A stretch of DNA of 64,000 nucleotides from the human T2T-CHM13v2.0 reference genome, Homo sapiens, in assembly GCF_009914755.1 (NCBI RefSeq), contig NC_060933.1, one strand, 5' to 3'. Made by a program: the position numbers and the translations under genes. Below the pieces are notes generated by a model that saw nothing but the letters and a program-made list of their open reading frames with translations, was not told the origin of the DNA and did no database searches. Below, in pieces: positions 1 through 64,000 of the stretch (within the stretch, counting starts at the first letter, position 1; each line of letters begins with the position of its first letter).

Positions 1-893
1 TCCATTCCATTCCATTCCATTCCATTCCATTCCATTCCATTCCGTTCCATTCCATTCCATTCCATTCTATTCGGTTTAATTCCATTCCATTCCATTCCAT
101 TCCATTCCATTCCAATCGAGTTGATTCCATTCCATTCCATTCCATTCCATTCCTCTCCATTGCAGTCCTTTCCTTTCCATTCCACTCGGGTTGATTCCAA
201 TGTATTCCTTTCCATTCCATTCCATTCCATTGCAATCGAGTTGATTCCATTGCTTTGCATTCCATTCCATTCCATTCCATTCCGGATGATTCCATTCCAT
301 TGCATTCCATTCCATTCCATTCCCCTGCACTCGTGTTGATTCCATTCCATTCCACTCCATTCCGTTGCATTCCATTCCATTACTTTCGGATTGATTCTAT
401 TCAACTCCCTTACTCTCCATTACATTCCATTCCATTCGGGTTGTTCCATTCCATTCCATTCCATTCCACTCCATTCCATTGCACTCGGGTTGATTCCATT
501 CCATTCCATTCCATTCCACTGCATTCCATTGCACTCGGGTTGATTCCATTCCATTCCATTCCATTCCATTCCATTCCATTCAATTCCGGATGATTCCATT
601 CCATTGCATTCCGTTCCATTACTTTCCCCTGCACTCGGGTTGATTCCATTCCATTCCATTCAATTGCATTCCATTACAATTCGTTCCATTCCATTCTATT
701 CCTTACCATTCCATTCCATTCCATAGCATTCCATTCCATTCCTTTCCGTTCCATTCCGTTCCATTGCATTCCATTCCATTCTATTCGGGTTAATTCCATA
801 CAATTCCATTCCATTCCATTCCATTATATTCCATTCCATTGCAATCGAGTTGAATCCATTGCATTTCATTCCATTCCATTCCATTTCATTCCA

Positions 894-27800: not shown

Positions 27801-30800
27801 ATTCCATTATATTCCATTCCATTGCAATCGAGTTGAATCCATTGCATTTCATTCCATTCCATTCCATTCCATTCCATTCCGGAAGATTCCATTCCATTGC
27901 ATTCCATTCCATTCCATTCCCCTGCACTCGCGTTGATTCCATTCCATTCCATTCCATTCCGTTCCGTTCCTTTCCGTTCCGTTCCATTCCATTCCATTCC
28001 ATTCCGTTCCGTTCCGTTCCGTTCCATTCCATTCCATTCTATTCGGGTTAATTCCATTCCATTCCATTCGATTGCAATCGAGTTGATTCCATTCCATTCC
28101 ATTCCATTCCTTTCCATTCCATTCCATTCCTTTCCATTCCATTACGGATGATTCCATTCCACTGCATTACATTCCATTCCATTCCCCTGTACTCGGGTTG
28201 ATTCCATTCCATTCCATTCCATTCCATTCCATTCTATTCCATTCCATTCCATTCCATTCCGGAAGATTCCATTCCATTGCATTCCATTCCATTCCATTCC
28301 CCTGAACTCGCGTTGATTCCATTCCATTCCATTCCATTCCATTCCATTCCGTTCCGTTCCGTTCCATTCCATTCCATTCCATTCCATTCCATTCCATTGC
28401 TTTCCGTTCCATTCCATTCCATTCCATTCTATTCGGGTTAATTCCATTCCATTCCGTTCGATTGCAATCGAGTTGATTCCATTCCATTCTATTCCATTCC
28501 ATTCCATTCCATTCCATTCCTTTCCATTCCATTACGGATGATTCCATTCCATTGCATTCCATTCCATTCCATTCCCCTGTACTCGGGTTGATTCCATTCC
28601 ATTCCATTCCAATCCATGCCATTCCACTCGTGTTGATTCCATTCTTTCCATTACATTCAATTTGAATCCATTCCATTGCATTGCATTCCATTCCATTCCC
28701 CTGCAGTCGGGTTGATTCCATTCCATTCCATTCCATTCCATTCCATTCCATTCCGTTCCGTTCCATTCCATTCCATTCCATTCTATTCGGGTTAATTCCA
28801 TTCCATTCCATTCGATTGCAATCGAGTTGATTCCATTCCATTCCATTCCAATCCATGCCATTGCACTCGGGTTGATTCCATTCTTTCCATTCCATTCAAG
28901 TTGAATCCATTACATTGCATTCCATTCGATTCGATTCCATTCGATTGCACTCGGGTTGATTCCATGGCATTGCATTCCATTCCATTCCATTCCATTCCTT
29001 TCCATTCCATTCCATGCCATTCCATTCGGATTCATTCTATTCAATTCCCTTACACTCCATTACATTCCATTCCATTCGTGTAGTTTCCATTCCATTCCAT
29101 TCCATTCCTCTCCATTCCATTGCACTCGGGTTGATTCCATTCCATTCCATTCCATTCCATTCCGGATGATTCCATTCCATTGAATTCCATTGCATTCCAT
29201 TCCCCTGCACTTGGGTTGATTCCATTCCATTCCATTCCATTCCTTTCTTTTCCATTCCATTCCATTCCATTCCATTCTTTCGTGTTTATTCCATTCCATT
29301 CTATTCCATTCCATTCCATTGAAATCGAGTTGATTCCATTCCATTCCATTCCATTCCATTCCATTCCATTCCATTCCATTCCATTCCGGATGATTCCATT
29401 CCATTCCATTCCATTCCATTCCATTCCATTGTACTCGGGTTGATTCCATTCCATTGCATTCCATTCCATTCCATTACATTCCATTCCGTTGCATTCTATT
29501 CCATTACATTCGTATTGATTCTATTCAACTCCCTTACTCTCCATTACATTCCATTCCATTCGGGTTGTTCCATTCCATTCCATTCCATTCCACTCCATTC
29601 CATTGCACTCGGGTTGATTCCATTCCATTCCATTCCATTCCATTCCATTCCATTCCGGATGATTCCATTTCATTGCATTCAATTCCATTCCATTCCCCTG
29701 CACTCGCGTTGATTCCATTCCATTCCATTCCATTCCATTCCATTCCCTTCCTTTCCGTTCCATTCCATTCCATTCCATTCCATTCCATTCCATTCCGTTC
29801 CATTCCATTCCATTCCATTCTTTTCGGGTTAATTCCATTCCATTCCATTCGATTGCAATCGAGTTGATTCCATTCCATTCCATTCCATTCCATTCCATTC
29901 CATTCCATTCCTTTCCATTCCATTACGGATGATTCCATTCCATTGCATTCCATTCCATTCCATTCCCCTATACTCGGGTTGATTCCATTCCATTCCATTC
30001 CAATCCATGCCATTCCACTCGTGTTGATTCCATTCTTTCCATTCCATTCAAGTTGAATCCATTCCATTGCATTCCATTCCATTCGATTCCATTCGATTGC
30101 ACTCGGGTTGATTCCATTCCATTGCATTCCATTCCATTCCGTTCCATTCCATTCCATTCCGTTCCATTCCATTTCATTACATTCAGATTGATTCTATTCA
30201 ATTACCTTACACTCCATTATATTCCAATCCATTCTGGTTGTCTCCATTCCATTCCATTCCATTTCACTCCATTCCATTGCACTCGGGTTGATTCCATTCC
30301 ATTCCATTACATTCCATTCCGTTCCATTCCGGATGATTCCATTCCATTGCATTCCATTCCATTCCATTCCCCTGCACTCGGGTTGATTCCATTCCATTCC
30401 ATTCCATTACATTCCCTTCCATTCTATTCCATTCCATTCGGATTGATTCTATTCAATTCCCTTACACTCCATTACATTCCATTCCATTCGGGTAGTTTCC
30501 TTTCCATTCCATTCCATTCCTCTCCATTCCATTGCACTCGGGTTGATTGCATTCCATTCCTTTCCATTCCATTCCATTCCATTCCATTCCATTCCATTCC
30601 ATTCCATTACATTCCATTCCATTCCGTTCCATTGTACTCGGGTTGATTCCATTCCATTGCATTCCATTCCATTCCATTCCATTCCATTCCATTCCATTCC
30701 GTTCCATTCCATTACATTCGGATTGATTCTATTCAACTCCCTTACTCTCCATTACATTACATTCCATTCGGGTTGTTCCATTCCATTCCATTCCATTCCA

Positions 30801-44230: not shown

Positions 44231-46109
44231 TTCCATTCCATTCCATTCCATTCCATGCCATTCCACTCGTGTTGATTCCATTCCTTTCCATTCCATTCGA
44301 GTTGAACCCATTCCATTCCATTCCATTCCATTCCATTCCAATCCATTGCACACGGGTTCATTCCATTCCATTCCATTCCATTCCGTTCCAATCCATTCCG
44401 TTCCATTCAATTCCATTCCATTCTGTTCAGGTTAATTCCATTCTATTCCTTTCCCTTCCATTCCATTCCATTCCATCCCATTGCAATCGAGTTGATTCCA
44501 TTGCATTCCATTCCATTACATTCCATTGCATTCCATTCCATTCCATTCCCCTGCACTCAGGTTGATTCCATTCGATTCCATTCCATTCCATTCCATTCCA
44601 TTCCGTTCCATTCCATTCCATTCCATTCTATTCGCGTTAATTGCATTCCATTCCATTCCATTACATTCCATTGCAATCGAGTTGATTCCATTCCATTCCG
44701 TTCCATTCCATTCCATTCCATTCCATTTCGTTCCATTCCATTCTATTCCGTACCATTCCATTCCATTCCATTCCATTCCATTCCATTCCATTCCATGCCA
44801 TTCCACTCGGGTTGATTCCATTGCTTTCCATTCCATTTGGGTTGAATCCATTCCATTCCATTCCATTCCATTCCATTCCATTCCATTGCACTAGGTTTGA
44901 TTCCATTCCACTGCATTCCATTCCATTCCATTCCATTCCGTTCCATTCCATTCCATTACATTCGGATTGATTGTATTCAATTCCCTTACACTCCATTTCA
45001 TTCCATTCCATTCGGGTTGTTTCCATGTCATTCCATTCCATTCCACTCCATTCCATTGCACTCGGGTTGATTCCATTCCATTCCATTCCATTCTATTCCA
45101 TTTCGTTCCATTCCATTCTATTCGGTACCATTCCATTCCATTCCATTCCCTTCCATTCCATTCCATTCCATTCCATGCCATTCCACTTGGGATAATTCCC
45201 TTCCTTTCCATTCCATTCGGGTTGAATCCATTCCATTCCATTCCATTCCAATCCATTCCATTCCTTTCCATTCCATTGCACACGGGTTGATTCCATTCCA
45301 TTCCTTTCTGTTCCATTCCGGATGACTCCATTCCATTGCATTCCATTCCATTCCCCTGCACTCGGGTTCATTCCATTCCATTCCATTTACTTCCATTCCA
45401 TTCCATTCCATTCCATTCCATTCTATTCGGGTTAATTCCATTCCATTCCATTCCATTCCATTCCATTCCGTTCCATTCAATTCCATTACATTCGGATTGA
45501 TTCTTTTTAATTCCCTTACACTCCATTACATTCTATTCCATTCGGGTAGTTTCCATACCATTCCATTCCATTCCACTGCATTCTATTGCACTCGGGTTGA
45601 TTGATTCCATTCCATTGCATTCCATTCCATTCCATTCCATTCCGGATGATTCCATTCCAATGCATTCCATTGCATTCCATTCCCCTGTACTCGGGTTGAT
45701 CCCATTCCATTGCATTCCATTCCATTCCATTCCATTCCATTCCATTCCATTCCGTTCCGTTCCATTCCATTCCCTTCCATTCTGTTCAGGTTAATTCCAT
45801 TCCATTCCATAACCTTCCATTCCATTCCATTCCATTCCATTCCATTCCATGCCATTCCACTCGGGTTAATTCCATTCCTTTCCATTCCATTCGAGTTGAA
45901 CCCATTCCATTCCATTCCATTCCATTCCATTCCACTCGGGTTGATTCCATTCCTTTCCATTCCATTCGGGTTGAAACCATTCCATTCCATTCCATTCCTT
46001 TCGATTCCATTCCATTTCACTCGGGTTGATCCCATTCCATTCCATTCCATTCCATTCCATTCCATTCTATTCGGGTTAATTCCATTCCATTCCATTCCAT
46101 TCCATTCCC

Positions 46110-46270
46110 TTCCATTCCATTCTATTCCATTCCATTCCATTCCATTCCATTCTAGTAGGGTTAATTCCATTCCATTCCATTCCATTCCATTCCATTCCAT
46201 TCCATTCCATTCCATTCCATTCTAGTAGGGTTAATTCCATTCCATTCCATTCCATTCCATTCCATTCCAT
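46110..46270 (+). repeat. 70-bp tandem duplication carrying a private variant TCTAGTAGGGTTAATT
   Basis: TCTAGTAGGG at 46151 and 46221. It was not seen elsewhere in the window. Confidence 0.85.
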
Positions 46271-49200
46271 TCCATTACATTGCAATCGAGTTGATTCCAT
46301 TCCATTCCATTCCATTCCATTCCATTCCATTCCATTGAACTCGGGTTGATTCCATTCCATTCCATGCCATTCCATTTAATTCCATTCCATTCCATTCCAT
46401 TCCATTCCATTCCATTCCATTCCTTTCCGTTCCATTCAATTACATTCGGATTGATTCTATTCAATTCCCTTACACTCCAATACATTCTATTCCATTCGTG
46501 TTGTTTCCATTCTATTCCATTCCATGCCACTCCATTCCATTGCACTCTGGTTGATTCCATTCCATTCCCTTCCATTTCGTATGACTCCATTCCATTTCAT
46601 TCCATTGCATTGCTTTCCCCTGCACTCGAGTTGATTACATTCCATTCCATTCCCTTCCTTTCCGTTCCATTCCATTCTATTCGGGTTAATTCCATTCCAT
46701 TCCATTGCATTCCATTCCCTTCCATTCCATTCCATTCCATTACATTCCATTCCCTTCGATTCTATTCGGGTTAATTCCATTCCATTCCATTCCATTCCAT
46801 TCCATTCCATTCCATTCCATTGCAATCGAGTTGATTCCATTCCATTCCATTCCATTCCATTCCGGATGATTCCATTCCATTGCCTTTCATTCCATTCCAT
46901 TACCATGCACTCGGGTTGTTTCCATTCCATTCCATTCCATTCCATTCCATTCCATTTCATTCCATTCGATTCTAATCCGCACCATTCAATTCCATTCCAT
47001 TCCATTCCATTCCATTCCATTCCAGTCCATGCCATTCCACTCGGGTTGATTTCATTCCTTTCCATTCCATTCGAGTTGTATCCTTTCCATTCCATTCCAT
47101 TCCATTCGATTCCATTCCATTGCACACGGGTTCATTCCATTCCATTCCATTCCATTCCATTCCATTCCATTCCATTCCATTTCGTTCCATTCCATTCTAT
47201 TCCGTACCATTCCATTCCATTCCAGTCCATTCCATGCCATTCCACTCAGGTTGATTCCATTCCTTTCAATTCCAGTTGGGTTGAATCCATTCCATTCCAT
47301 TCCATTCCATTCGATTCCATTACATTACACTCGGGTTGATTCCAATCCATTCCATTCCATTCCATTCCATTCCATTCCATTCCATTCCATTCCATACCAT
47401 TCCATTCCATTCCATTCCATGCCATTCCACTCGGGTTGATTCCATTCCTTTCCATTCCTTTCGAGTTGAACCCATTCCATTCCATTGCATTCCATTCCAT
47501 TCCATTCCATTGCACACGGGTTCATTCCATTCCATTCCATTCCATTCCATTCCATTCCATTTCGTTCTTTTCCATTCTATTCCGTACCATTCCATTCCAT
47601 TCCATTCCATTCCATTCCATGCCATTCCACTCGGGTTTATTCCATTCCTTTCCATTGCATTCGGGTTCAATCCATTCCATTCCCTTCCATTCCATTCAAT
47701 TCCATTCCATTGCACTCGGGTTGATTCCATTCCATTCCATGCCATTCCATTTCATTCCATTCCATTCCATTCCATTCCATTCTATTCCGTTCCATTCCAT
47801 TCAATTACATTCGTATTGATTCTTTTTAATTCCCTTACACTCCATTACATTCCATTCCATTCGGGTACTTTCCATTCCATTCCATTCCATTCCACTGCAT
47901 TCTATTGCACTCGGGTTGATTGATTCCATTCCATTGCATTCCATTCCATTCCATTCCCCTGAACTCGGGTGGATTCCATTCCATTCCATTCCATTCCATT
48001 CCGTTCCATTCCATTCCATTCCATTCTGTTCAGGTTAATTCCATTCCATTCCATTCCCTTCCATTCCATTCCATTCTATTCCATTCCATTCCATTCCATT
48101 CCTCTGCACTCAGTTTGATTCCATTCCATTCCATTCCATTCCATTCCGTTCCATTCCATTCCAATCCACTTTATTCGCATTAATTCCATTCAATTCCATT
48201 CCATTACATTCCATTGCAATCGAGTTGATTCCATTCCATTCCATTCCATTCCATTCAAGTCCTTTCCATTCCATTCCACTCGTGTTGATTCCATTTTATT
48301 AGTTTCCATTCCATTCCATTCCCTTCCATTCCACTCTGGTTGATTCCATTCCTTTCCATTCTACTCGATTGCATTCCCTTCTAATCCACTTGGATTGATT
48401 CCATTCCATTCCGTTCCATTCCATTCCATTTCGTTCCATTCCATTCTATTCCATTCCATTCCATTCCATTCCTTTCCATTCCATTCCGTTCCATTCCATT
48501 CCATTCCATTCCATTTCTTTCCATTCCATTCTATTCCATACCATTCCATTCCATTCCGTTGCATGCCATTCCACTCGGGTTGATTCCATTGCTTTCCATT
48601 CCATTTGGGTTGAATCCATTCCATTCCATTCCATTCCATTCCATTCCATTCCATTCCATTCCGTTCCATTCCATTCCATTACATTCGTATTGATTGTATT
48701 CAATTCCCTTACACTCCATTCCATTCCATTCCATTCGGGTTGTTTCCATTCCATTCAATTCCTTTCCACTCCATTCCATTGCAGTCGGGTTGATTCCATT
48801 CCATTCCATTCCATTCCTTTCCATTCCATTTCGTTCCATTCCATTCTATTCCATACCATTCCATTCCATTCCATTCCATTCCATTCCATTCCATTCCATG
48901 CCATTCCACTCGGGTTGATTCCTTTCCATTCCATTCCATTCGGGTTGAAACCATTCCATTCCATTCTATTCCATTGCATTCCGGATGATTGCATTCCATT
49001 GCCTTGCATTCAATTGCATTCCCCTGCACCCGGGTTGATTCCATTCCATTCCATTCCATTCCATTCCGTTCCCTTCCATTCCATACCATTCCATTCCATT
49101 CCAATCCATTCTATTCGGGTTAATTCCATTCCATTCCATTCCATTCCATTCAATTTCATTGTAATCGGGTTGATTCCATTCCGTTCCATTCCATTGCATT

Positions 49201-52200
49201 CCATTCCATTCCATTCCATTCCATTCCATTCCACTCGGGTTGATTCCATTCCTTTCCATTCCATTCGGGGTGAAGCCTTTCCATTCCATTCCATTCCTTT
49301 CGATTCCATTCCATTGCACTCGGGTTGATCCCATTCCTTTGCATTCCATTCCATTCCATTCCATTCCATTCCATTACATTCCATTCCGTTCCATTCAATT
49401 CCATTACATTCGGATTGATTCTATTCAATTCCCTTACAATCCATCACATTCCATTCCATTCGGTTTGTTTCCATTCCATTCCATTCCATTAAATTCCATT
49501 CCATTCCATTCCATTCCGTATGATTCCATTCCATTGCATTCTATTCCATTCCATTCCCCTGCACTCAGGTGGATTCCATTCTATTCCATTCCATTCCATT
49601 CCATTCCATTCCATTCCATTGAAATCGAGTTGATTCCATTCCATTCTATTCCATTCAATTCCATTCCATTCCATTCTATTCTGGTTAATTCCATTGCATT
49701 CCATTCCATTCCCTTCCATTCCATTCCATTCTATTCCATTCCATTCCATTCTATTAGGGTTAATTCCATTCCATTCCATTCCATTCCATTCCATTCCATT
49801 CCATTGCAATCGAGTTGATTCCATTCCATTCTATTCCATTCCATTCCATTCAATTCCATTGAACTCGGGTTGATTCCATTCCATTCCATGCCATTCCATT
49901 TCATTCCAATCCATTGCCTTCCATTCCATTCCATTCCTCTGCACTCGGGTTGATTCCATTCCTTTCCATTCCATTCCATTCCATTCCATGCCATTCCACA
50001 CGGGTTGATTCCATTACTTTCCATTCCATTCGAGTAGAATCCATTCCATTCGATTCCATTCCATTCCATTCCATTCCATTGCTCACGGATTCATTGCATT
50101 CCATTCCATTCCATTCCATTCTATTCCATTTCATTCCATTTCTTTCCATTCCATTCTCTTCCGTACCATTCCATTCCATTCCATTCCACTTCATTCCATG
50201 CCATTCCACTCGGGTTTATTCCATTCCTTTCCATTCCATTCGGGTTGAATTCATTCCATTCCATTCCATTCCATTCCATTCCATTGCACTCGGGTTGATT
50301 CCATTCCATTCCATTCCATTTCATTCCATTCCCTTCCATTCCATTCCCTTCCATTCCATTCCATTCCATGCCATTCCACTCGGGTTGATTCCATTCCTTT
50401 CCATTCCATTCCAGTTGAACCCATTCCATTCTATTCCATTCCATTCCATTCCATTCCATTCCATTGCACACGGGTTCATTCCATTCCAATCCATTCCATT
50501 CCATTCCATTCCATTCCATTTCGTTCCATTCCATTCTATTCCTTACCATTCCATTCCATTCCATTCCCTTCCATGTCATTTCACTCGGGTTTATTCCATT
50601 CCTTTCCATTCCATTCCGGTTGAATCCATTCCATTCCATTCCATTCCATTCCATTGAACTCGGGTTGATTCCATTCCATTCCATGCCATTCCATTTCATT
50701 CCATTCCATTCCATTCCGTTCCATTCCATTCCATTCCTTTCCGTTCAATTCCATTACATTCGGATTGATTCTTTTTAATTCCCTTACACTCAATTACATT
50801 CCATTCCATTCGGGTACTTTCCATTCCATTCCATTCCATTCCTCTGCATTCTATTGCACTCGGGTTGATTGATTCCATTCCATTGCATTCCATTCCATTC
50901 AGGATGATTCCATTCCATTGTATTCCCTTCCATTCCATTCCCCTGCACTCGTGTTGATTCCATTCCTTTCCATTCCATTCCATTCCGTTCCATTCCATTC
51001 CATTACATTCGTACTGATTGTACTCAATTCCCTTACACTCCATTACATTCCATTCCATTCGGGCTGTTTCCATTCCATTACATTCCATTCCACTCCATTC
51101 CATTGCAGTCAGGTTGATTCCATTCCATTCCATTCCATTTCATTCCATTCCATTCCATTTCGTTCCATTCTTTCTATTCCTTAACATTCCATTCCGTTCC
51201 ATTCCATTCCATTCCATGCCATTCCACTCGGGTTGATTCCATTCCTTTCCATTCCATTCGGGTTGAATCCATTCCATTCCATTCCATTCCATTCCTTTCC
51301 GTATGATTCCATTCCATTGCATTCCATTCCATTCCATTCACCTGCACTCGGGTGGATTCCATTCTATTCCATTCCATTCCATTCCATTCCATTCCATTCC
51401 ATTCCATTCCATTCCATGCCATTCCATTCCATTCTATTCGGGTTAATTTCATTCCATTCCATTCCATTCCATTTCATTCCATTCCATTCCCTTTCATTCC
51501 ATTCCATTCCTTTCCATTCCATTCCATTGAAATCGAGTTGATTCCATTCCATTCCATTCCATTCCATTCCATTCCATTCCATTCCATTCCATTCCGTTCC
51601 AATGCATTCCATTCTATTCAGGTTAATTCCATTCCATTCCATTCCATTCCATTCCATTCCATTCCATTCCATTCCATTCTATTAGGGTTAATTCCATTCC
51701 ATTCCATTCCATTCCATTCCATTCCATTCCATTCCATTTCAATCGAGTTCATTCCATTCCATTCCATTCCATTCCGTTCCATTCCATTCAATTCCTGATG
51801 ATTCCCTTCCATTTCCTTCCATTCCATTCCATTCCCCTGCACTCGGGTTGATTCCGTTCCATTCCATTCCATTCCATTCCATTCCATTCCATTCCATTCC
51901 ATTCCATTTCGTTCCATTCCATTCTATTCCGTACCATTCCATTCCATTCCATTCCATTCCATTCCATTCCATTCCATTCCATGCCATTCCACTCGGGTTG
52001 ATTCCATTCCTTTCCATTCCATTCGAGTTGAACCCATTCCATTCCATTCCATTCCATTCCATTCCTTTCCATTCCATTCCATTTCGTTCCATTCCATTCT
52101 CTTCCGTAGTATTCCATTCCATTCCATTCCACTCCATTCCATGCCATTCCACTCGGGTTTATTCCATTCCTTTCCATTCCATTCGGGTTGAATTCATTCC

Positions 52201-55200
52201 ATTCCATTCCATTCCATTCCATTCAATTCCATTACATTGCACTCGGGTTGATTCCATTCCATTCCATTCCATTTCAATCCATTCCCTTCCATTCCGTTTC
52301 ATTCCATTCCATTCCATTCCATTCCATGCCATTCCACTCGGGTTGATTCCATTCCTTTCCATTCCATTCTGGTTGAACCCATTCCATTCCATTCCATTCC
52401 ATTCCATTCCATTGCACACGGGTTCATTCCATTCCATTCCATTCCATTCCATTCCATTCCATTCCATTCCATTTCGTTCCATTCCATTCTATTCCTTACC
52501 ATTCCATTCCATTCCTTTCCCTTCCATGCCATTTCACTCGGGTTTATTCCATTCCTTTCCATTCCATTCGGGTTGAATCCATTCCATTCCATTCCATTCC
52601 ATTTGATTCCAATCCATTGAACTCGGGTTGATTCCATTCCATTCCAAGCCATTCCATTTCATTCCATTCCATTCCATTCCATTCCATTCCATTCCGTTCC
52701 ATTCCATTCCATTACATTCGGATTGATTCTTTTTAATTCCCTTACACTCCATTACATTCCTTTCCATTCGGGTAATTTCCATTCCATTCCATTCCATTCC
52801 ACTGCATTCTATTGCACTCGGGTTGATTGATTCCATTCCATTGCATTCCATTCCATTCCATTCCCCTGCTCTCGGGTTGATCCCATTGCATTGCATTCCA
52901 TTCCATTCCATTCCATTCCATTCCATTCCGTTCCATTCCATTCCATTCCATTCTGTTCAGGTTAATTCCATTCCATTCCATTCCATCCCATTGCAATCTA
53001 GTTGATTCCATTGCATTCCATTCCATTCCATTCCATTCCATTCCATTGCATTCCATTCCATTCCATTCTCCTGCACTCAGATTGATTCCATTCCATCCCA
53101 TTCCATTCCATTCCGTTCCATTACATTCCATTCCATTCTATTCGCGTTAATTCCATTCCATTCCATTCCATTACATTCCACTGCAATCGAGTTGATTCCA
53201 TTCCATTCCGTTCCATTCCATTCCATTCCATTCCATTTCGTTCCATTCCATTTTATTCTGTACCATTCCATTCCATTCCATTCCATTCCATTCCATTCCA
53301 TTCCATGCCATTCCACTCGGGTTGATTCCATTGCTTTCCATTCCATTTGGGTTGAATCCAATCCATTCCATTCCATTCCATTCCATTCCATTCCATTCCA
53401 TTCCATTGCACTAGGTTTGATTCCATTCCACTGCATTCCATTCCATTCCATTCCGTTCCATTCCATTCCATTACATTCGGATTGATTGTATTCAATTCCC
53501 TTACACTCCATTACATTCCATTCCATTCGGGTTGTTTCCATTCCATTACATTCCATTCCACTCCATTCCATTGCACTCAGGTTGATTCCATTCCTTTCCA
53601 TTCCATTTCGTTCCATTCCATTCTATTCCGTACCATTCCATTCCATTCCATTCCATTACATGCCATTCCACTCAGGTTTATTACATTCCTTTCCATTCCA
53701 TTCGGGTTGAATCCATTCCATTCCATTCCATTCCATTCCATTCCATTCCATTCCTTTGCACTCGGGTTGATTCCATTCCATTCCCTGCCATTCCATTTCA
53801 TTCCATTCCATTCCATTCCATTCCATTCCATTCCATTCCATTCCGTTCCATTCCATTCCATTACATTCGGATTGATTGTATTCAATTCCCTTACACTCCA
53901 TTACATTCCATTCCATTCGGGTTGTTTCCGTTCCATTACATTCCATTCCACTCCATTCCATTGCATTCAGGTTGATTCCATTCCATTCCATTCCATTCCA
54001 TTCCATTCCATTCCATTCCATTCCATTCCATTTCGTTCCATTCCATTCTATTCCGTACCATTCCATTCCATTCCATTCCATTCCATGCCATTCCACTCGG
54101 GTTGATTCCATTCCTTTCCATTCCATTCGGGTTGAATCCATTCCATTCCATTCCATTGCATTCCGTTCCATTCCATTCCCCTGCAATCGGGTGGATTCCA
54201 TTCTATTCCATTCCATTCCATTCATTCCATTCCATTCCATTCCATTTCGTTCCATTCCATTCTATTCCATACCTTTCCATTCCATTCCATTCCATTCCAT
54301 TCCATGCCATGCCATTCCACTCGGGTTGATTCCATTCCTTTCCATTCCATTCTAGTTGAATCCATTTCATTGCATTCCATTCCATTCGATTCCATTCAAT
54401 TGCACACGGGTTCATTCCATTCCATTCCATTCCATTCCATTCCATTCCATTCCATTCCATTTCGTTCCATTCCATTCTATTCCATACCATTCCCTTCCAT
54501 TCCATTCCATTCCACTCCATTCCATGCCATTCCACTCGGGTTTATTCCGTTCCTTTCCATTCCATTCGGGTTGAATCCATTCCATTCGGGTTGAATCCAT
54601 TCCATTCCATTCAATTCCATTCCATTCCATTCCATTCCATGCCATTCCACTCGGGTTGATTCCATTCCTTTCCATTCCATTCGAGTTGAACCCATTCCAT
54701 TCCATTCCATTGCATTCGATTCCATTCCATTCCATTGCTCACGGGTTCATTCCATCCAATTCCATGCCATTCCATTGCATTCCATTCCATTTCGTTCCAT
54801 TCCATTCTACTCCTTACCATTGCATTCCATTCCATTCCCTTCCATGCCATTTCACTCGGGTTTATTCCTTTCCTTTCCATTCCATTCGGGTTGAATCCAT
54901 TCCATTCCATTCCATTGCATTCCATTCCATTCCATTCCCCTGTAATCGGGTGGATTCCATTCTATTCCATTCCATTCCATTCCATTCCATTCCATCCCAT
55001 TCCATTCCATTTCGTTCCATTCCATTCTATTCCGTACCTTTCCATTCCATTCCATTCCATTCCATTCCATGCCATGCCATTCCACTCGGGTTGATTCCAT
55101 TGCTTTCCATTCCATTTGGGTTAAATCTAATCCATTCCATTCCATTCCATTCCATTCCATTCCATTGCACTAGGTTTGATTCCATTTCACTGCATTCCAT

Positions 55201-55380
55201 TCCATTCCATTCCATTAAATTCCATTCCACTCGGGTTGATTCCATTCCTTTCCATTCCATTCGTGTTGAATCCATTCCATTCCATTCCATTACTTTCGAT
55301 TCCATTCCATTGCACTCGGGTTGAACCCATTCCATTGGATTCCATTCCATTCCATTGCATTCCATTCCGTTCCATTCCAT

Positions 55381-55485
55381 TCCATTACATTCGTATTGAT
55401 TCTATTCACTTCCCTTACACTCCATTCCATTCCATTACATTCGTATTGATTCTATTCAATTCCCTTACACTCCATTCCATTCCAT
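55381..55485 (+). repeat. 50-bp tandem duplication of the TCGTATTGATTCTATTCA-TTCCCTTACAC module
   Basis: TCGTATTGAT at 55391 and 55441 with matching flanks. Confidence 0.85.
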
Positions 55486-56071
55486 TCCATTCGGGTTGTT
55501 TCCATTCCATTCCATTCCATTCCACTCCATTCCATTGCAATCGGGTTGATTCCATTCCATTCCATTCCCTTCCATTCCATTCCATTCCATTACATCCCAT
55601 CCAATTGCAATCGAGTTGATTCCATTGCATTCCATTCCATTCCATTCCATTCCATTGCATTCCATTCCATTCCATTCCCCTGCACTCAGATTGATTCCAT
55701 TCCATCCCATTCCATTCAATTCCGTTCCATTCCATTCCATTCCATTCTATTCGCGTTAATTCCATTCCATTCCATTACATTCCATTGCAATCGAGTTGAT
55801 TCCATTCCATTCCGTTCCATTCCATTCCATTCCATTCCATTTCGTTCCATTCCATTCTATTCCGTACCATTCCATTCCATTCCATTCCATTCCATTCCAT
55901 TCCATTCCATGCCATTCCACTCGGGTTGATTCTATTGCTTTCCATTCCATTTGGGTTGAATCCAATCCATTCCATTCCATTCCATTCCATTCCATTCCAT
56001 TGCACTAGGTTTGATTCCATTCCACTGCATTCCATTCCATTCCATTCCGTTCCATTCCATTCCATTACATT

Positions 56072-56169
56072 CGGATTGATTGTATTCAATTCCTTACACT
56101 CCATTACATTCCATTCCATTCGGATTGATTGTATTCAATTCCTTACACTCCATTACATTCCATTCCATT
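56072..56169 (+). repeat. 49-bp tandem duplication, both copies carrying the same 1-bp deletion
   Basis: CGGATTGATTGTATTCAATTCCTTACACTCCATTACATTCCATTCCATT at 56072 and 56121. Elsewhere the module reads CAATTCCCTTACAC. Confidence 0.9.
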
Positions 56170-58957
56170 CGGGTTGTTTCCATTCCATTCCATTCCATTC
56201 CATTCCATTCCATTCCATTCCATTGCACTCAGGTTGATTCCATTCCATTCCATTCCATTCCATTCCATTCCATTTCGTTCCATTCCATTCTATTCCGTAC
56301 CATTCTATTCCATTCCATTCCATTCCATGCCATTCCACTCGGGTTTATTCCATTCCTTTCCATTCCATTCGGGTTGAATCCATTCCATTCCATTCCATTC
56401 CATTCCATTCCATTCCATTCCATTGCACTCGGGTTGATTCCATTCCATTCCCTGCCATTCCATTTTATTCCATTCCATTCCATTCCATTCCATTCCATTC
56501 CATTGCATTCCATTCCATTCCATTCCAGTCCATTCCATTACATTCGGATTGATTGTATTCAATTCCCTTACACTCCATTACATTCCATTACATTCGTGTT
56601 GTTTCCGTTCCATTACATTCCCTTCCACTCCATTCCATTGCACTCAGGTTGATTCCATTCCATTCCATTCCATTCCATTCCATTCCATTCCATTCCATTT
56701 CGTTCCATTCCATTCTATTCCCTACCATTCCATTCCATTCCATTCCATTCCATGCCAATCCACTCGGGTTGATTCCATTCCTTTCCATTCCATTCGGGTT
56801 GAATCCATTCCATTCCATTCCATTCCATTCCATTCCATTCCATTCCATTCCCCTGCAATCGGGTGGATTCCATTCTATTCCATTCCATTCTATTCCATTC
56901 CTTTCCATTCCATTCCATTCCATTCCATTTCGTTCCATTCCATTCTATTCCGTACCATTCCTTTCCATTCCATTCCATTCCATTCCATGCCATGCCATTC
57001 CACTCGGGTTGATTCCATTCCTTTCCATTCCATTCTAGTTGAATCCATTCCATTGCATTCCATTCCATTCGATTCCATTCAATTGCACACGGGTTCATTC
57101 CATTCCATTCCATTCCATTCCATTCCATTTCGTTCCATTCCATTCTATTCCGTACCATTCCCTTCCATTCAATTCCATTCCACTCCATTCCATGCCATTC
57201 CACTCGGGTTTATTCCATTCCCTTCCATTCCATTCGGGTTGAATCCATTCCATTCCATTCCATTCCATTCCATTCCATTCCATGCCATTCCACTCGGGTT
57301 GATTCCATTCTTTTCCATTCCATTCGAGTTGAACCCATTCCATTCCATTCCATTCCATTCCATTCCACTCCATTCCGTTCCACTCGGGTTGATTCCATTC
57401 CTTTCCATTCCATTCTGGTTGAAACCATTCCATTCCATTCCATTCCTTTCGATTCCATTCCATTTCACTCGGGTTGATCCCATTCCATTGCATTCCATTC
57501 CATTCCATGGCATTCCATTCCGTTCCATTCCATTCCATTACATTCGTATTGATTCTATTCAATTCCCTTACTCTCCATTACATTCCATTCCATTCGGGTT
57601 GTTTCCATTCCATTCCATTCCATTCCACTCCATTCCATTGCAATCGGGTTGATTCCATTCCATTCCATTGCATTCCATTCCATTTCATTCCATTCCATTC
57701 CATTCCATTCCGTATGATTCCATTCCATTGCATTCCATTCCATTCCATTCCACTGCACTCGGTTGGATTCCATTCTATTCCATTCCATTCCATTCCATTC
57801 CATTCCATTCCATTCCATTCCATTCCATTCCATTCTATTCGGGTTAATTTCATTCCATTCCCTTCCATTCCATTCCATTCCATTCCATTCCATTCCATTC
57901 CAATGAAATCGTGTTGATTCCATTCCATTCCATTCCATTCCATTCCATTCCATTCTATTCGTGTTAATTCCATTCCATTCCATTCCATTCCATTCCCTTC
58001 CATTCCATTCCATTCCATTCCATTCCATTCCATTCCATTCTATTAGGGTTAATTCCATTCCATTCCATTCCATTCCATTCCATTCCATTCCATTCCACTC
58101 CATTCCATGCCATTCCACTCGGGTTTATTCCATTCCTTTCCATTCCATTCGGGTTGAATCCATTCCATTCCATTCCATTCCATTCCATTCCATGCCATTG
58201 CACTCGGGTTGATTCCATTCCTTTCCATTCCATTCGAATTGAACCCATTCCATTCCCTTCCATTCCATTCCATTCCATTGCATTCCATTCCATTGCTCAC
58301 GGGTTCATTCCATTCCATTCCATTCCATTCCATTCCATTCCATTCCGTTCCATTCCATTCCATTCCATTCTGTTCAGGTTAATTCCTTTCCATTCCATTG
58401 CCTTCCATTCCATTCCATTCCATTCCATCCCATTGCAATCTAGTTGATTCCATTGCATTCCATTCCATTGCATTCCATTCCATTGCATTCCATTCCATTC
58501 CATTCCCCTGCACTCAGATTGATTCCATTCCATCCCATTCCATTCCATTCCGTTCCATTACATTCCATTCCATTCTATTCGCGTTAATTCCATTCCATTC
58601 CATTACATTACATTCCATTGCAATCGAGTTGATTCCATTCCATTCCGTTCCATTCCATTCCATTCCATTCCATTTCGTTCCATTCCATTCTATTCTGTAC
58701 CATTCCATTCCATTCCATTCCATTCCATTCCATTCCGTGCCATTCCACTCAGGTTGATTCCATTGCTTTCCATTCCATTTGGTTTGAATCCAATCCCTTC
58801 CATTCCATTCCATTCCATTCCATTCCATTGCACTAGGTTTGATTCCATTCCACTGCATTCCATTCCATTCCATTCCGTTCCATTCCATTCCATTACATTC
58901 GGATTGATTGTATTCAATTCCCTTACACTCCATTGCATTCCATTCCATTCGGGTTGT

Positions 58958-59004
58958 TTCCATTCCATTCCATTCCGTGTGCAATGGAATGGAATGGAAT
59001 GGAA
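58958..59004. other. Strand-switch (inversion) breakpoint with local inverted repeat
   Basis: Sequence reads ...TTCCATTCCATTCCATTCC (58958-58976) GTGTGCAAT (58977-58985) GGAATGGAATGGAATGGAA (58986-59004). These are 19-bp perfectly complementary arms around a 9-nt spacer, with no foreign sequence inserted. Confidence 0.97.
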
Positions 59005-62000
59005 TGGAATGGGTTCAACTAGAATGGAATGGAAAGGAATGGAATCAACCCGAGTGGAATGGCATGGAATGGAATGGAATGGAATGGAATGGAATGGAAA
59101 GAAATGGAATGGAAGGGAATGGATTGAAATGGAATGGAATGGAATGGAATCAACCCGAGTGCAATGTAATGGAATTGAATGGAATGGAATGGAATGGAAT
59201 GGAATGAATTCAACCCGAATGGAATGGAAAGGAATGGAATAAACCCGAGTGAAATGGCATGGAATGGCGTGGAATGGAATGGAATGGAATACTACGGAAT
59301 AGAATGGAATGGAACGAAATGGAATGGAATGGAATGGAATGGAATGGAATGGAATGGAATGAACACGTGAGCAATGGAATGGAATCGAATGGAATAGAAT
59401 GGAATGGAATGGATTCAACTCGAATGGAATGGAAAGGAATGGAATCAACCCGAGTGGAATGGCATGGAATGGAATGGAATGGAATGGAATGGAATGGAAT
59501 GGAATGGAACGGAATGGAATGGAATCAACTCGATTGCAAAGGAATGTAATGGAATGGAATGGAACGGAATTAACGCAAATAGAATGGAATGGAAAGGAAT
59601 GGAACGGAATGGAATGGAAAGGAATGGAATGGAATAAATCTGAGTGCAGGGGAATGCAATGGAATGGAATGCAATGGAATGGAATGGAATGGAATGCAAT
59701 GGAATCACCTCGATTGCAATGGGATGGAATGGAATGGAATGGAATGGAAGGGAATGGAATGGAATGGAATTAACCTGAACAGAATGGAATGGAATCGAAT
59801 GGAATGGAATGGAATGCAATGGAATGGAATCAATCAACCCGAGTGCAATAGAATGCAGAGGAATGGAATGGAATGGAATGGAATGGAATGGAATGGAATG
59901 GAATGAAATGGAATGGCAGGGAATGGAATGGAATCAACCCGAGTGCAAAGGAATGGAATGGAATGGAATGGAATGGAATGGAATGGAATGGATTCAACCC
60001 GAATGGAATGGAAAGGAATGGAATAAACCTGAGTGGAATCGCATGGAATGGAATGGAATGGAATGGAATGGAATGGTACGGAATAGAATGGAATGGAACG
60101 AAATGGAATGGAATGGAATGGAATGGAATGGAATCAACCTGAGTGCAATGGAATGGAGTGGAATGGAATGTAATGGAATGGAAACAACCCGAATGGAATG
60201 GAATGTAATGGAGTGTAAGGGAATTGAATACAATCAATCCGAATGTAATGGAATGGAATGGAACGGAAGGGAATGGAATGGAATGCAGTGGAATGGAATC
60301 AAACCTAGTGCAATGGAATGGAATGGAATGGAATGGAATGGAATGGAATGGAATGGAATGGATTGGATTCAACTCAAATGGAATGGAAAGCAATGGAATC
60401 AACCCGAGTGGAATGGCATGGAATGGAATGGAATGGAATGGAATGGAATGGTACAGAATAGAATGGAATGGAATGAAATGGAATGGAATGGAATGGAATG
60501 GAACGGAATGGAATGGAATCAACACGAGTGCAGTGTAATGGAATCGAATGGAATGGAATGGAATGGAATGGATTCAACACGAATGGAATGGAAAGGAATG
60601 GAATAAACCCGCGTGGAATGGCATGGAATGGAGTGGAATGGAATGGAATGGAATGGAATGGAATCAACCCGAGTGCAAAGTAATGGAATCGAATGGAATG
60701 GAATGGAATGGAAAGGATTCAACACGAATGGAATGGAAAGGAATGGAATAAACCCGAGTGGAATGGCATGAAGTGGAGTGGAATGGAATGGAATGGAATG
60801 GAATGGAATGGTACGGAATAGAATGGAATGGAACGAAATGGAATGGAATGGAATGGAATGGAATAGAATGGAATGAACCCGTGTGCAATGGAATGGAATC
60901 GAATGGAATGGAATGGATTGGAATGGATTCAACTCGAATGGAATGGAAAGGAATGGAATCAACCCGAGTGGATTGGCATGGAATGGAATGGAATGGAATG
61001 GAATGGAATGGAATGGAATGGTACGGAATAGAATGGAAAGGAACGAAATGGAATGGAATGAAATGGAATGGAATGGAATGGAATGGAATGGAATGGAATG
61101 GAATGGAATCAACCCGAGTGCAGGGGAATGGAATGGAATTGAAGGCAATGGAATGGAATCATCCGGAATTGAATGGAATGGAATGGAATCAACTCGATTG
61201 CAATGGAATGGAATGGAATGGAATGGAATGGAATGGAATGGAATGGAATGGAATGGAATGGAATTAACCCGAATAGAATGGAATGGAATGGAATGGAAGT
61301 AAATGGAATGGAAGGTAATGAACCCGAGTGCAGGGGAATGGAATGGAATGGAATGCAATGAAATGGAGTCATCCGGAATGGAACGGAAAGGAATGGAATG
61401 GAACCAACCCGTGTGTAATGGAATTGAAAGGAATGGAATGGAATGGAATGGAATGGAATGGAATGGAATGGATTCAACCCGAATGGAATGGAAAGGAAGG
61501 GAATCAACCCAAGTGGAATGGCATGGAATGGAATGGATTGGAATGGAATGGAATGGTACCGAATGGAATGGAATGGAATGGTACCGAATAGAATGGAATG
61601 GAACGAAATGGAATGGAATGGAATGGAATGGAATGGAATGGAATGGAATGGAAACAACACGAGTGCAATGTAATGGAATCGAATGGAATGGAATGCAATG
61701 GATTCAACCCGAATGGAATGGAAACGAATGGAATAAAACCGAGTGGAATGGCATGGAATGGAGTCTAATGGAATGGAATGGAATGGAATGGTATGGAATA
61801 GAATGGAATGGAACGAAATGGAATGGAATGGAATGGAATGAAATGAACCCGTGTGCAATGGAATGGAATGGAATGGAATGGAATGGAATGGATTCAACTC
61901 GAATGGAATGGAAAGGAATGGAATCAACCCGAGGGGAATGGCATGGAATGGAATGGAATGGAATGGAATTAACCCTAATAGAATGGAATGGAATGGAATG

Positions 62001-64000
62001 GAATGGAATGGAATGGAATGGAATGGAAGGAAATGGAATGGAATGGAAGGGAATGGAATGGAATGGAATGGAATGGTACGGAATAGAATGGAATGGAACG
62101 AAATGGAATGGAATGGAATGGAATGGAACGGGATGGAATGGAATGGAATGGAATGGAATGGGATGGAATGGAATGGAATGGAATCAACCCGAGTGCAGGG
62201 GAATGGAATGGAATGGAAGGCAATGGAATGACATCATTCGGAATTGAATGGAATGGAATGGAATGGAATGGAATCAACTCGATTGAAATGGAATGGAATG
62301 GAATGGAATGGAATGGAATGGAATGGAATGGAATGGAAGTGAATGGAATGGAATGTAATGAAACCGAGTGCAGGGGAATGGAATGGAATGGAATGCAATG
62401 GAATGGAGTCATCCGGAATGGAACGGAATGGAATGGAATGGAATCAACCCGAGTGCAATGGAATGGAATGGAATGGAAAGGAATGGAATGGAATGGACTC
62501 AACCCGAATGGAATGGAAAGGAATGGAATCAACCCGAGAGGAATGGCATGGAATGGAATGGAATGGAATGGAGTGGAATGGTACAGAATAGAATGTAATA
62601 GAACGAAATGGAATGGAATGGAATGGAATTGAATGGAATCATTCCGAGTGGAATAGAAGGGAATGTTTTCGAGTGGAATGAAAAGGAATGGAATCAACCA
62701 GAGTGGAATGGAATGGAATCGAGTGGAATGGAATGCAATCGAATGTAATGGAAAGGAATAGAATGGAATCAACCCGAGTGGAATGGAATGGAAAGGACTG
62801 GAATGGAATGGAATGGAATGCAATGGAATCAACTCGATTGCAATGAAATGGAATGGAATGGAATGGAATGGAATGGAATGGAATTAACCGGAATAGAATG
62901 GAATTGAATGGAATGGAAAGGAATGGAATGGAATAGAATGGAATGGAATATAATGGAATGGAATGGATTCAACTCGAATGGAATGGAAAGGAATGGAATC
63001 AACCCGAGTGGAATGGCATGGAACGGAATGGAATGGAATGGAATGGAAGGAAATGGAATGGAATGGAATGGAATGGAATGGAATGGAATGGAATGGAATC
63101 AACCCGAGTGCAATGGAATGGAATGGAATGGAAAGGAATGGAATGGAATGGATTCAACCCGAATGGAATGGAAAGGAATGGAATCAACCCGAGAGGAATG
63201 GCATGTAATGGAATGGAATGGAATGGAGTGGAATGGTACGGAATAGAATGTAATGGAACGAAACGGAATGGAATGGAATGGAATGGAATGGAATGGAATG
63301 GAATGGAATCATTCCGAGTGGAATAGAAGGGAATGTTTTCGAGTGGAATGAAGAGGAATGGTATCAACCAGAGTGGAATGGAATGGAATTGAATGGAATG
63401 GAAAGGAATAGAATGGAATCAACCCGAGTGGAATGGAATGGAAAGGACTGGAATGGAATGGAATGGAATGCAATGGAATCAACTCGATTGCAATGAAATG
63501 GAATGGAATGGAATGGAATGGAATGGAATGGAATAGAATGGAAAGGAATCACTCCAAGTGCAGGGGAATTTAATGGAATGGAATGCAGTGGAATGGAATC
63601 ATCCGGAATGGAATGGAATGGAATGGAACGGAATGGAATGGAATCAACTCGAATTCAATGGAATGGAAAGGAATGGAATGGAATGGAATGCAATGGAATC
63701 GTACGGAATAGAATGGAATGGAACGAAATGGAATGTAATGGAATGGAATGGAATGGAATGGAATGTAATGGAACGGAATGGAATGGAATGAACCCGCGTG
63801 CAATGGAATGGAACGGAATGGAATGGAATGGAATGGAATGGAATGGAATGGAATGGGTTCAACTCGAATGGAATGGAAAGGAATGGAATCAACACGAGTG
63901 GAATGGCATGGAATGGAATGGAATTGAATGAAATGGAATGGAATGGAATGGAATGAAATGTAATGGAATGGAAAGGAATGGAATCAACACGAGTGGAATG
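58977..64000 (-). repeat. Sub-domain C: inverted HSat3 block (GGAAT on +), same variant family as domain B
   Basis: The + strand reads (GGAAT)n with CAACCCGAGT modules. It contains reverse complements of B markers: AAACCTAGTGC (60301), GAACCCGTGTGCA (~60875, ~61845), TAACCTGAACAGA (59771) and CAATCAACCC (59831). Confidence 0.97.
62420..63540 (-). repeat. ~660 bp tandem duplication within the inverted block
   Basis: ATTCCGAGTGGAATAGAAGGGAATGTTTTCGAGTGG at 62641 and 63311. CCCGAGAGG at ~62533 and ~63188. GGACTGG at 62795 and 63445. Confidence 0.85.

What the first reader, a model, noticed from the sequence alone, without database searches (positions are those of the whole stretch)
58958..59004. 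Clean strand-inversion breakpoint forming a near-palindromic hairpin/cruciform centre
Seen: the array flips from CATTC to GGAAT at 58,976/58,977 with no intervening foreign DNA. The left side ends mid-pentamer run (CATTCC). The right side starts inside the module AACCCGTGTGCAATGG. The two share CC (58975-58976), or up to CCGT if the left pentamer was the common CCGTT variant. This suggests short microhomology joining or a template switch. Locally it forms a perfect 19-bp stem with a 9-nt loop, extendable for kilobases by imperfect CATTC:GAATG pairing. Established: strand switches are reported in T2T HSat3 arrays, notably chr9, but their mechanism and function are poorly understood.
Basis: partly seen in the sequence, partly recalled or inferred. 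Interest (0 to 1): 0.7.

Follow-up and report, generated by a model that had tools for sequence, protein, structure and literature searches.

The report
Satellite flip junction copied 85 times
This spot where a chromosome 9 satellite repeat switches direction is one of 85 near-identical copies of the same junction, and five such junction types make up about nine in ten of the direction switches found in the array, likely because recombination copied and flipped a few old inversions rather than because a hairpin keeps breaking there.

Summary
The strand flip at 58,976/58,977, the 19-bp stem with 9-nt loop and the 2-bp overlap are real. The junction is not unique. Its 28-mer occurs 80 times exactly (85 with 1-2 mismatches), only on chr9 at 52.3-76.4 Mb, 36 forward and 49 reverse. 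Copies share kilobase flanks about 1% apart, whereas the two arms are only about 80% alike, so it is neither a fold-back palindrome nor a chimera. I placed 221 of at least 231 strand switches in the array: five junction families (85, 53, 30, 22, 17 copies) supply 207. Junction pairs multiply by direct duplication (9.5 kb, 21 kb, multi-Mb). One crossover was located and made no new switch. Orientation changed repeatedly: this copy's closest relatives, apart from its twin, lie in the opposite orientation at about 0.3% divergence. Best reading: a few old inversions, amplified and re-flipped by homologous recombination. A cruciform role is unsupported. The 200+ chr9 switches are published; I did not find the founder-family structure in ten literature searches, but key supplements were unseen. 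One genome only.

The parts
58965..58992 (+). Junction signature (family J1): 28-mer spanning the strand switch; 80 exact and 5 near-exact copies on chr9
58958..58976 (+). Left arm of the perfect 19-bp stem (end of the CATTC block)
58975..58976 (+). 2-bp overlap (CC) shared by the two parent modules
58977..58985 (+). 9-nt loop; first bases of the truncated GAATG-polarity module
58986..59004 (+). Right arm of the perfect 19-bp stem
1..58976 (+). CATTC-polarity HSat3 block; the nearest mapped switch to the left is a Kc junction at chr9:57,225,012 (about 246 kb away)
58977..64000 (-). Opposite-polarity (GAATG on +) HSat3 block; the nearest mapped switch to the right is a Ka junction at chr9:57,590,853 (about 120 kb away)
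55477..63876 (.). Stretch colinear with the opposite-orientation copy at chr9:54.09 Mb: 10 mismatches in 2,565 aligned positions on the left, 10 in 3,715 on the right (pentamer runs collapsed)
60875..60892 (+). Intact copy of the right-hand parent module
60180..60190 (-). Intact copy of the left-hand parent module in mirror orientation, 1.2 kb into the right block (a local 400-bp match at 91%, not a fold-back)

Best explanation
This is one of 85 near-identical copies of a single strand-switch junction scattered in both orientations over 24 Mb of the chr9 HSat3 array, likely descended from one old inversion join that homologous recombination then multiplied and flipped. Step 1 (inferred): a rare non-homologous join with 2 bp of overlap fused two diverged HSat3 modules head to head. 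About four other such joins founded the remaining large families. Step 2 (shown in sequence): unequal exchange between same-polarity blocks duplicates junction pairs at 9.5-kb, 21-kb and multi-megabase scales; the one crossover located made no new switch. Step 3 (result shown, pathway inferred): because CATTC and GAATG blocks are inverted repeats of one another, recombination between them flips or copies segments in reverse, again without new switches. This gives a roughly 50:50 orientation mix and near-random pairing of junction arms. The hairpin is a by-product of joining complementary pentamer runs.
For: 80 exact copies (33 forward, 47 reverse), all on chr9, control 0; 85 at up to 2 mismatches. 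Flanks were read for 24 of the 85. Among 20 copies the median pairwise difference over about 600 collapsed bases of right flank is 1.1%, and colinear sharing falls to background after about 2 kb at the median, against about 80% identity between the two arms. Map: 221 placed plus 10 inferred switches; five families give 207; every interval between two CATTC-to-GAATG switches holds a mapped reverse switch. 7 of 7 bisected unlisted reverse switches were one family. Direct duplications: 43 of 44 and 31 of 31 junctions match in order and orientation between Mb-scale twins, with one extra junction pair in one twin; a recent multi-Mb duplication is published (PMC9186530). A 21-kb tandem duplicate has its crossover about 1.2 kb into the arm. 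Flips: 27 forward and 28 reverse after removing the twins; arm pairing Fisher p = 0.39, 0.09, 0.47; the tree needs 3 orientation changes and 0% of 200 bootstrap trees need only 1; the window copy differs from the reverse copy at 54.09 Mb by 20 of 6,280 aligned positions. Switch number scales with array length across haplotypes, r = 0.90 (10.64898/2026.07.22.740206).
Against: One genome only; no reads, other haplotypes or apes could be searched. The tree covers 20 of 85 copies, ten loci were picked for likeness to the window, and its well-supported branches alone do not exclude a single orientation change. After removing twins, one of three arm-pairing tests is nominally non-random (Kb, p = 0.036). 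No flip has occurred between the Mb-scale twins, so flipping is not fast. No long inverted junction barcode was found (longest run 3). No inversion crossover point was mapped. At least 14 placed switches are singles or pairs, and 3 of 3 bisected unlisted forward switches were new junctions, so new joins do keep arising. The total of 231 is a minimum: hidden pairs in long intervals would lower the 90% share.
Confidence: 0.85

Rival explanations
1. The junction is a cruciform- or hairpin-forming element that is fragile or functional, and that structure drives its spread or retention.
For: A 19-bp perfect stem exists. This family is the commonest, 85 of at least 115 forward switches. In a different family (J2/J3, 24-bp stem, 5-nt loop) the two J3 copies read have the right arm carrying a mirror image of left-arm variants, which looks like hairpin-templated rewriting. 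Same-family mirror-oriented neighbours are more evenly spaced around a central junction than other triples (38 of 130 triples, p = 0.003, post hoc, non-independent).
Against: 9-nt loop, several slipping registers, centre unpaired in the centroid. Arms about 80% alike. 80 of 85 centres are intact and 0 of 3 unlisted forward switches derive from this one. The other large families have perfect stems of only 7-10 bp in the copy measured, yet are also amplified. The one mirror triple testable in sequence was not an inverted duplicate. In permanganate/S1 data, inverted-repeat and cruciform motifs were negatively correlated with signal genome-wide, and the HSat3 signal was ascribed to a G-rich-strand hairpin that needs no junction (PMC12637528, passages).
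Confidence: 0.08
2. The same breakpoint forms again and again at a sequence-determined hotspot (recurrent template switch), so the copies are not related by descent.
For: Several other junctions sit on short palindromes within the modules (TGCA, CCATGG, TGGCCA), so local sequence does bias where joins form.
Against: Copies share private variants for kilobases on both sides and form nested groups. The parent modules are common (11 and 13 hits in this window alone) and differ from one another, yet the copies read carry the same pair of flanks. Only 2 bp of overlap guides the join.
Confidence: 0.03
3. The junction is an assembly error or a fold-back read chimera.
For: The array was a source of graph ambiguity at multi-Mb scale (PMC9186530). 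Raw reads could not be checked here.
Against: A fold-back chimera gives mirror-identical arms, and these are about 80% alike. 85 copies with graded divergence alternate with reverse-type junctions. Independent assemblies report about 129 switches per haplotype (10.64898/2026.09.03.749043).
Confidence: 0.01
4. Each family was inverted only once or twice long ago, and all later spread and arm re-pairing came from direct duplications alone, with no continuing flipping.
For: Orientation is fully kept within both Mb-scale twins. One search shows that direct exchange alone can re-pair arms. Strongly supported branches do not force more than one change.
Against: The window's forward copy is about 0.3% from reverse copies over more than 6 kb aligned, and no other forward copy but its twin is among its four nearest on either flank. 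All five families occur in both orientations.
Confidence: 0.15

Closest known systems
Inversion breakpoints (strand switches) of the chr9 HSat3B5 array (10.1101/2021.07.12.452052; 10.64898/2026.07.22.740206; 10.64898/2026.09.03.749043)
   Same: Same array, same feature. My minimum of 231 agrees with the published 'over 200'. The 2026 preprint already calls them by-products of array expansion because their number scales with array length.
   Different: The passages I read count switches but do not say that they are copies of about five junction sequences, that one supplies about three quarters of one polarity, or that copies lie in both orientations.
Recent multi-megabase HSat3 duplication at 9q12 in CHM13 (PMC9186530)
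   Same: The junction barcode recovers a roughly 6-Mb direct duplicate holding this window (twin at 68.09 Mb) and a second of about 2.2 Mb.
   Different: These account for only 30 of the 85 copies; 55 remain, evenly split by orientation.
Recurrent inversion by recombination between inverted repeats (flip-flop; general mechanism recalled, and mentioned for centromeres in PMC10813616)
   Same: Inverted homologous blocks with an internal asymmetric marker found in both orientations.
   Different: Here the inverted repeats are the satellite blocks themselves, about 230 of them, and the marker is the junction; no crossover of an inversion was mapped.
Fold-back / ODIRA palindromic junctions (PMC10766186, abstract) and cruciform-forming palindromes such as PATRRs (recalled)
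   Same: Head-to-head join with a short stem-loop centre.
   Different: The arms are not recent mirror copies and the centre is stable across 85 copies. The J2/J3 family is the better candidate for hairpin-templated change.

Membership tests
chr9 HSat3 strand switch (published inversion breakpoints) | Lies within the large chr9 CATTC-derived array | tested here: met
   Window is C9:57,412,001-57,476,000; pentamer counts
chr9 HSat3 strand switch (published inversion breakpoints) | Long-range change of repeat polarity at one point | tested here: met
chr9 HSat3 strand switch (published inversion breakpoints) | Subfamily B5 by diagnostic k-mers; listed in the published breakpoint table | not testable with these tools
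   Subfamily name taken from the paper's text; its supplementary tables were not seen
Amplified founder junction (identity by descent) | Same breakpoint to the base in many copies | tested here: met
   80 exact, 5 near-exact
Amplified founder junction (identity by descent) | Flanks on both sides far closer between copies than between array segments at large | tested here: met
   about 1% versus about 20%; 24 of 85 copies read, 20 compared
Flip-flop inversion between inverted repeats | Asymmetric marker in both orientations, more than one change | tested here: met
   36 forward, 49 reverse; 3 changes on a 20-copy tree, moderate support
Flip-flop inversion between inverted repeats | Crossover mapped inside inverted homology | tested here: inconclusive
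   Mapped only for a direct duplication; longest inverted barcode run is 3
Flip-flop inversion between inverted repeats | Orientation polymorphic between haplotypes | not testable with these tools
   Only one human assembly is held
Fold-back / ODIRA palindromic junction | Near-identical mirror arms around the junction | tested here: not met
   158 mismatches in 1,285 aligned positions; about 80% gapped
Fold-back / ODIRA palindromic junction | Microhomology at the join | tested here: inconclusive
   2 bp, not above chance in a C-rich repeat
Cruciform-forming fragile palindrome (PATRR-like; criteria recalled) | Long near-perfect stem with a very short loop | tested here: not met
   19 bp, 9-nt loop, no register with a loop of 5 or less
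Cruciform-forming fragile palindrome (PATRR-like; criteria recalled) | Frequent centre deletions | tested here: inconclusive
   0 of 3 bisected unlisted forward switches looked like derivatives; 10 remain unplaced, and pattern search cannot see indels
Cruciform-forming fragile palindrome (PATRR-like; criteria recalled) | Structure-specific nuclease sensitivity | not testable with these tools
   needs bench work

The most novel reading that the evidence does not exclude
The chr9 HSat3 array is a still-active flip-flop machine seeded by about five founding inversions: its roughly 230 alternating blocks recombine in both directions, existing junctions act as centres of large mirror duplications and sometimes rewrite their own arms, and the five junction k-mers form a barcode that lets inversion and duplication rates inside this array be read directly from pangenome and pedigree assemblies.
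Probability: 0.35. Interest if true: 0.72.

Novelty: new variant of a known kind. Interest (0 to 1): 0.5.

Why it matters
The 200+ strand switches in the chr9 HSat3 array were reported as surprising, and at least one population study leaves inversions inside this array out because alignments are unreliable. If about 90% of them are copies of five junctions, the question changes from why this array breaks and inverts hundreds of times to how a few inversions were multiplied and flipped. That is directly testable. Five roughly 30-nt k-mers give an alignment-free, oriented barcode for the array, usable on any assembly or long-read set to map duplications, inversions and 9qh size variants, and to date them against apes. 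The single site itself is ordinary.

Tried and rejected
(1) Fold-back palindrome: arms no closer than any two array segments. (2) My idea that GAATG-to-CATTC switches are mostly unique while the other polarity is one founder: rejected when 7 of 7 bisected cases proved to be one family of 53. (3) J2 as a centre-deleted J1: flanks differ, only partial 93-95% module matches; J2 instead groups with J3. (4) Long inverted segmental duplications from the junction barcode: none beyond runs of 3. (5) Mirror duplication around a junction: spacing excess seen, but the one triple testable in sequence (52.92-52.95 Mb, spacing ratio 0.83) was negative; the most symmetric triples were not read. (6) Extra conservation of the centre: 80 of 85 exact, but the search cannot see indels, so no selection claim. 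(7) Permissive BLAST extension aligned almost anything in this repeat and was replaced by k-mer profiles. (8) Generic gap patterns missed most reverse switches; a candidate was a singleton. (9) No age is given: satellite mutation and conversion rates are too uncertain. (10) No binding, RNA-family or protein searches were run; the window has no annotated gene and they did not bear on the question.

Full report
Observation. The window is CATTC satellite from 1 to 58,976 and GAATG satellite after it, with three stray opposite-strand pentamers in 64 kb and a matching flip in GC skew. The perfect stem is 19 bp with a 9-nt loop; a second 19-bp register has a 14-nt loop. Intact copies of both parent modules lie in the window. 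They show that the join cuts the right module after its AAC and shares two bases with the left.

Not a palindrome. The arms differ at 158 of 1,285 aligned positions over 1.4 kb. Their best gapped matches, about 78-83%, equal those between same-strand parts of the array. Folding is strong against shuffles (z = -7.6) but ill-defined: the best structure has frequency 0.003 and the centroid leaves the centre open. From general knowledge (recalled), a 9-nt loop and short perfect stem disfavour cruciform extrusion.

Not unique. The junction 28-mer (family J1) occurs 80 times exactly, only on chr9 between 52.34 and 76.36 Mb, 33 forward and 47 reverse, control 0. Allowing three mismatches adds 5 J1 variants and 6 copies of another centre. 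I read flanks of 24 of the 85 copies; all were true switches with the same neighbours. Among 20 copies the median difference over about 600 collapsed bases of right flank is 1.1%. Among the 13 with long flanks, colinear k-mer sharing falls to the arm-versus-arm background after about 2 kb. Ten loci came from a search ranked by likeness to the window, so the sample leans towards close relatives.

The rest of the array. Gap patterns and bisection found the other families: J2, 11 copies, and J3, 6 copies, which share both flanks and count as one family (7 of 11 and 2 of 6 read); Ka, 30 (5 read); Kb, 22 (4 read); Kc, 53 (7 read, found by bisecting 7 intervals, 7 of 7 the same family). Fourteen more placed switches are singles or pairs. 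The map has 221 placed switches. Every interval between two forward switches holds a mapped reverse one, and 10 intervals still lack a forward one, so the minimum is 231. Five families give 207. Copies not read are accepted on pattern match and on this alternation. Hidden pairs in long intervals, and anything before 51.07 Mb, would raise the denominator, so 90% is an upper figure. J1 is 85 of at least 115 forward switches.

How copies multiply. The ordered barcode shows two direct megabase-scale duplicates: 54.6-60.7 Mb against 65.2-71.3 Mb (43 of 44 junctions match; the unmatched one was not searched for in the twin) and 52.3-54.6 Mb against 61.1-63.4 Mb (31 of 31). The window's twin at 68.09 Mb has no mismatch over 1.5 kb either side. 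A recent multi-Mb duplication here is published (PMC9186530, passages). The distal twin carries one extra junction pair in a 9.5-kb repeat. At 52.93-52.98 Mb a 21-kb tandem duplicate shares 65-100% of 40-mers per kb with its neighbour. Its crossover lies about 1.2 kb into the J1 arm, where the sequence switches to a same-polarity stretch 18 kb away, with no new strand switch.

How orientation mixes. With the twins removed, 55 J1 copies remain, 27 forward and 28 reverse. Each J1 arm faces each arm of the reverse families at similar rates (Fisher p = 0.39, 0.09, 0.47; after removing twins 1.0, 0.036, 0.55). A 20-copy tree needs three orientation changes and none of 200 bootstrap trees needs only one, though the two strongly supported branches alone do not exclude one. 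The window's forward copy differs from the reverse copy at 54.09 Mb by 10 of 2,565 and 10 of 3,715 aligned positions. I infer recombination between opposite-polarity blocks, which are inverted repeats of each other; crossover and inverted copying cannot be told apart here. Against fast flipping: no orientation change between the twins, and no inverted barcode longer than three.

Hairpin effects. For J1 I found none: 80 of 85 centres are exact, and the three unlisted forward switches I located were three new junctions on short palindromes. In J2/J3, both J3 copies read have a right arm mirroring left-arm variants and a near-perfect centre, which suggests a hairpin-templated rewrite; its direction is not established. 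Mirror-oriented same-family neighbours are more evenly spaced than other triples (38 of 130, p = 0.003, post hoc, overlapping), but the one triple I could read was not an inverted duplicate. Permanganate/S1 data show HSat3 single-strand signal ascribed to a G-rich hairpin, and depletion at cruciform motifs genome-wide (PMC12637528, passages).

Literature. Over 200 breakpoints in this array: 10.1101/2021.07.12.452052 (passages), repeated in PMC10813616 (passages). About 129 switches per haplotype: 10.64898/2026.09.03.749043 (passages). Count scales with length, randomly spread, read as by-products of expansion: 10.64898/2026.07.22.740206 (passages and section 6). Also looked at, without bearing on founder families: PMC2588610, PMC13174521 and 10.64898/2025.12.22.696095 (passages), 10.1101/2024.10.22.616524 (four terms, no hit), PMC10766186 (abstract). 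Ten searches led to no passage describing shared junction sequences. The journal version of the T2T centromere paper was not held, the 2022 HSat review was not read, and no supplements were seen; any of these could already state it.

Verdict. Real, known in kind, and locally unremarkable. The useful result is that this junction is the commonest of about five founders behind the array's strand switches, most likely spread and flipped by homologous recombination (0.85). A structural role for this hairpin is unlikely (0.08). Interest 0.5.

Noticed in passing
L160, L161 versus L032-L037 (chr9 58.657, 72.813 Mb versus J2 copies): J3 shares both flanks with J2, but its right arm carries a mirror image of left-arm variants and its centre is a near-perfect palindrome (45-bp perfect stem in one register in L160): a likely hairpin-templated rewrite, amplified to 6 copies.
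   Followed up: partly
chr9 60,202,486-60,219,084 and 70,855,022-70,871,640 (partly in L011): A J1 copy sits between two mirror-oriented Kb junctions at 8.4 and 8.2 kb; possibly a 16-kb palindrome. Only one side was read.
   Followed up: no
L046 (chr9 75,367,552): Shares the right flank of family Ka exactly from the centre but has a different left side: a likely one-sided derivative.
   Followed up: partly
L044, L138, L158, L159, L164: Minor junctions are centred on short palindromes already present in the modules (TGGCCA, CCATGG, TTGCAA, GAATTC), suggesting where new joins form.
   Followed up: partly
G000:C7 58,725,952-59,037,569: Six satellite strand switches on chr7 occur as three mirror pairs, consistent with a roughly 310-kb inverted duplication; C13 has a similar pair at 51.50 and 51.74 Mb.
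   Followed up: no
chr9 61,030,704 and 61,082,270 (L008, L009, L113): A 51.6-kb tandem repeat of a J1 plus Kc unit sits at the start of the 2.2-Mb duplicate; the J1 flanks are identical to the copy at 52.34 Mb.
   Followed up: partly
window 15,472; 62,641; 63,311: Isolated opposite-strand pentamers, not switches.
   Followed up: yes
chr9 76.53-76.57 Mb (L163, L164): Three closely spaced, diverged, non-family reverse switches near the distal end of the array (two read), perhaps an older layer.
   Followed up: partly
whole array (inference): At J-type junctions the G-rich strands run away from the centre and at K-type junctions they converge; if satellite III transcription follows the G-rich strand (recalled), read-through at K junctions would give hairpin RNA. 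Untested.
   Followed up: no
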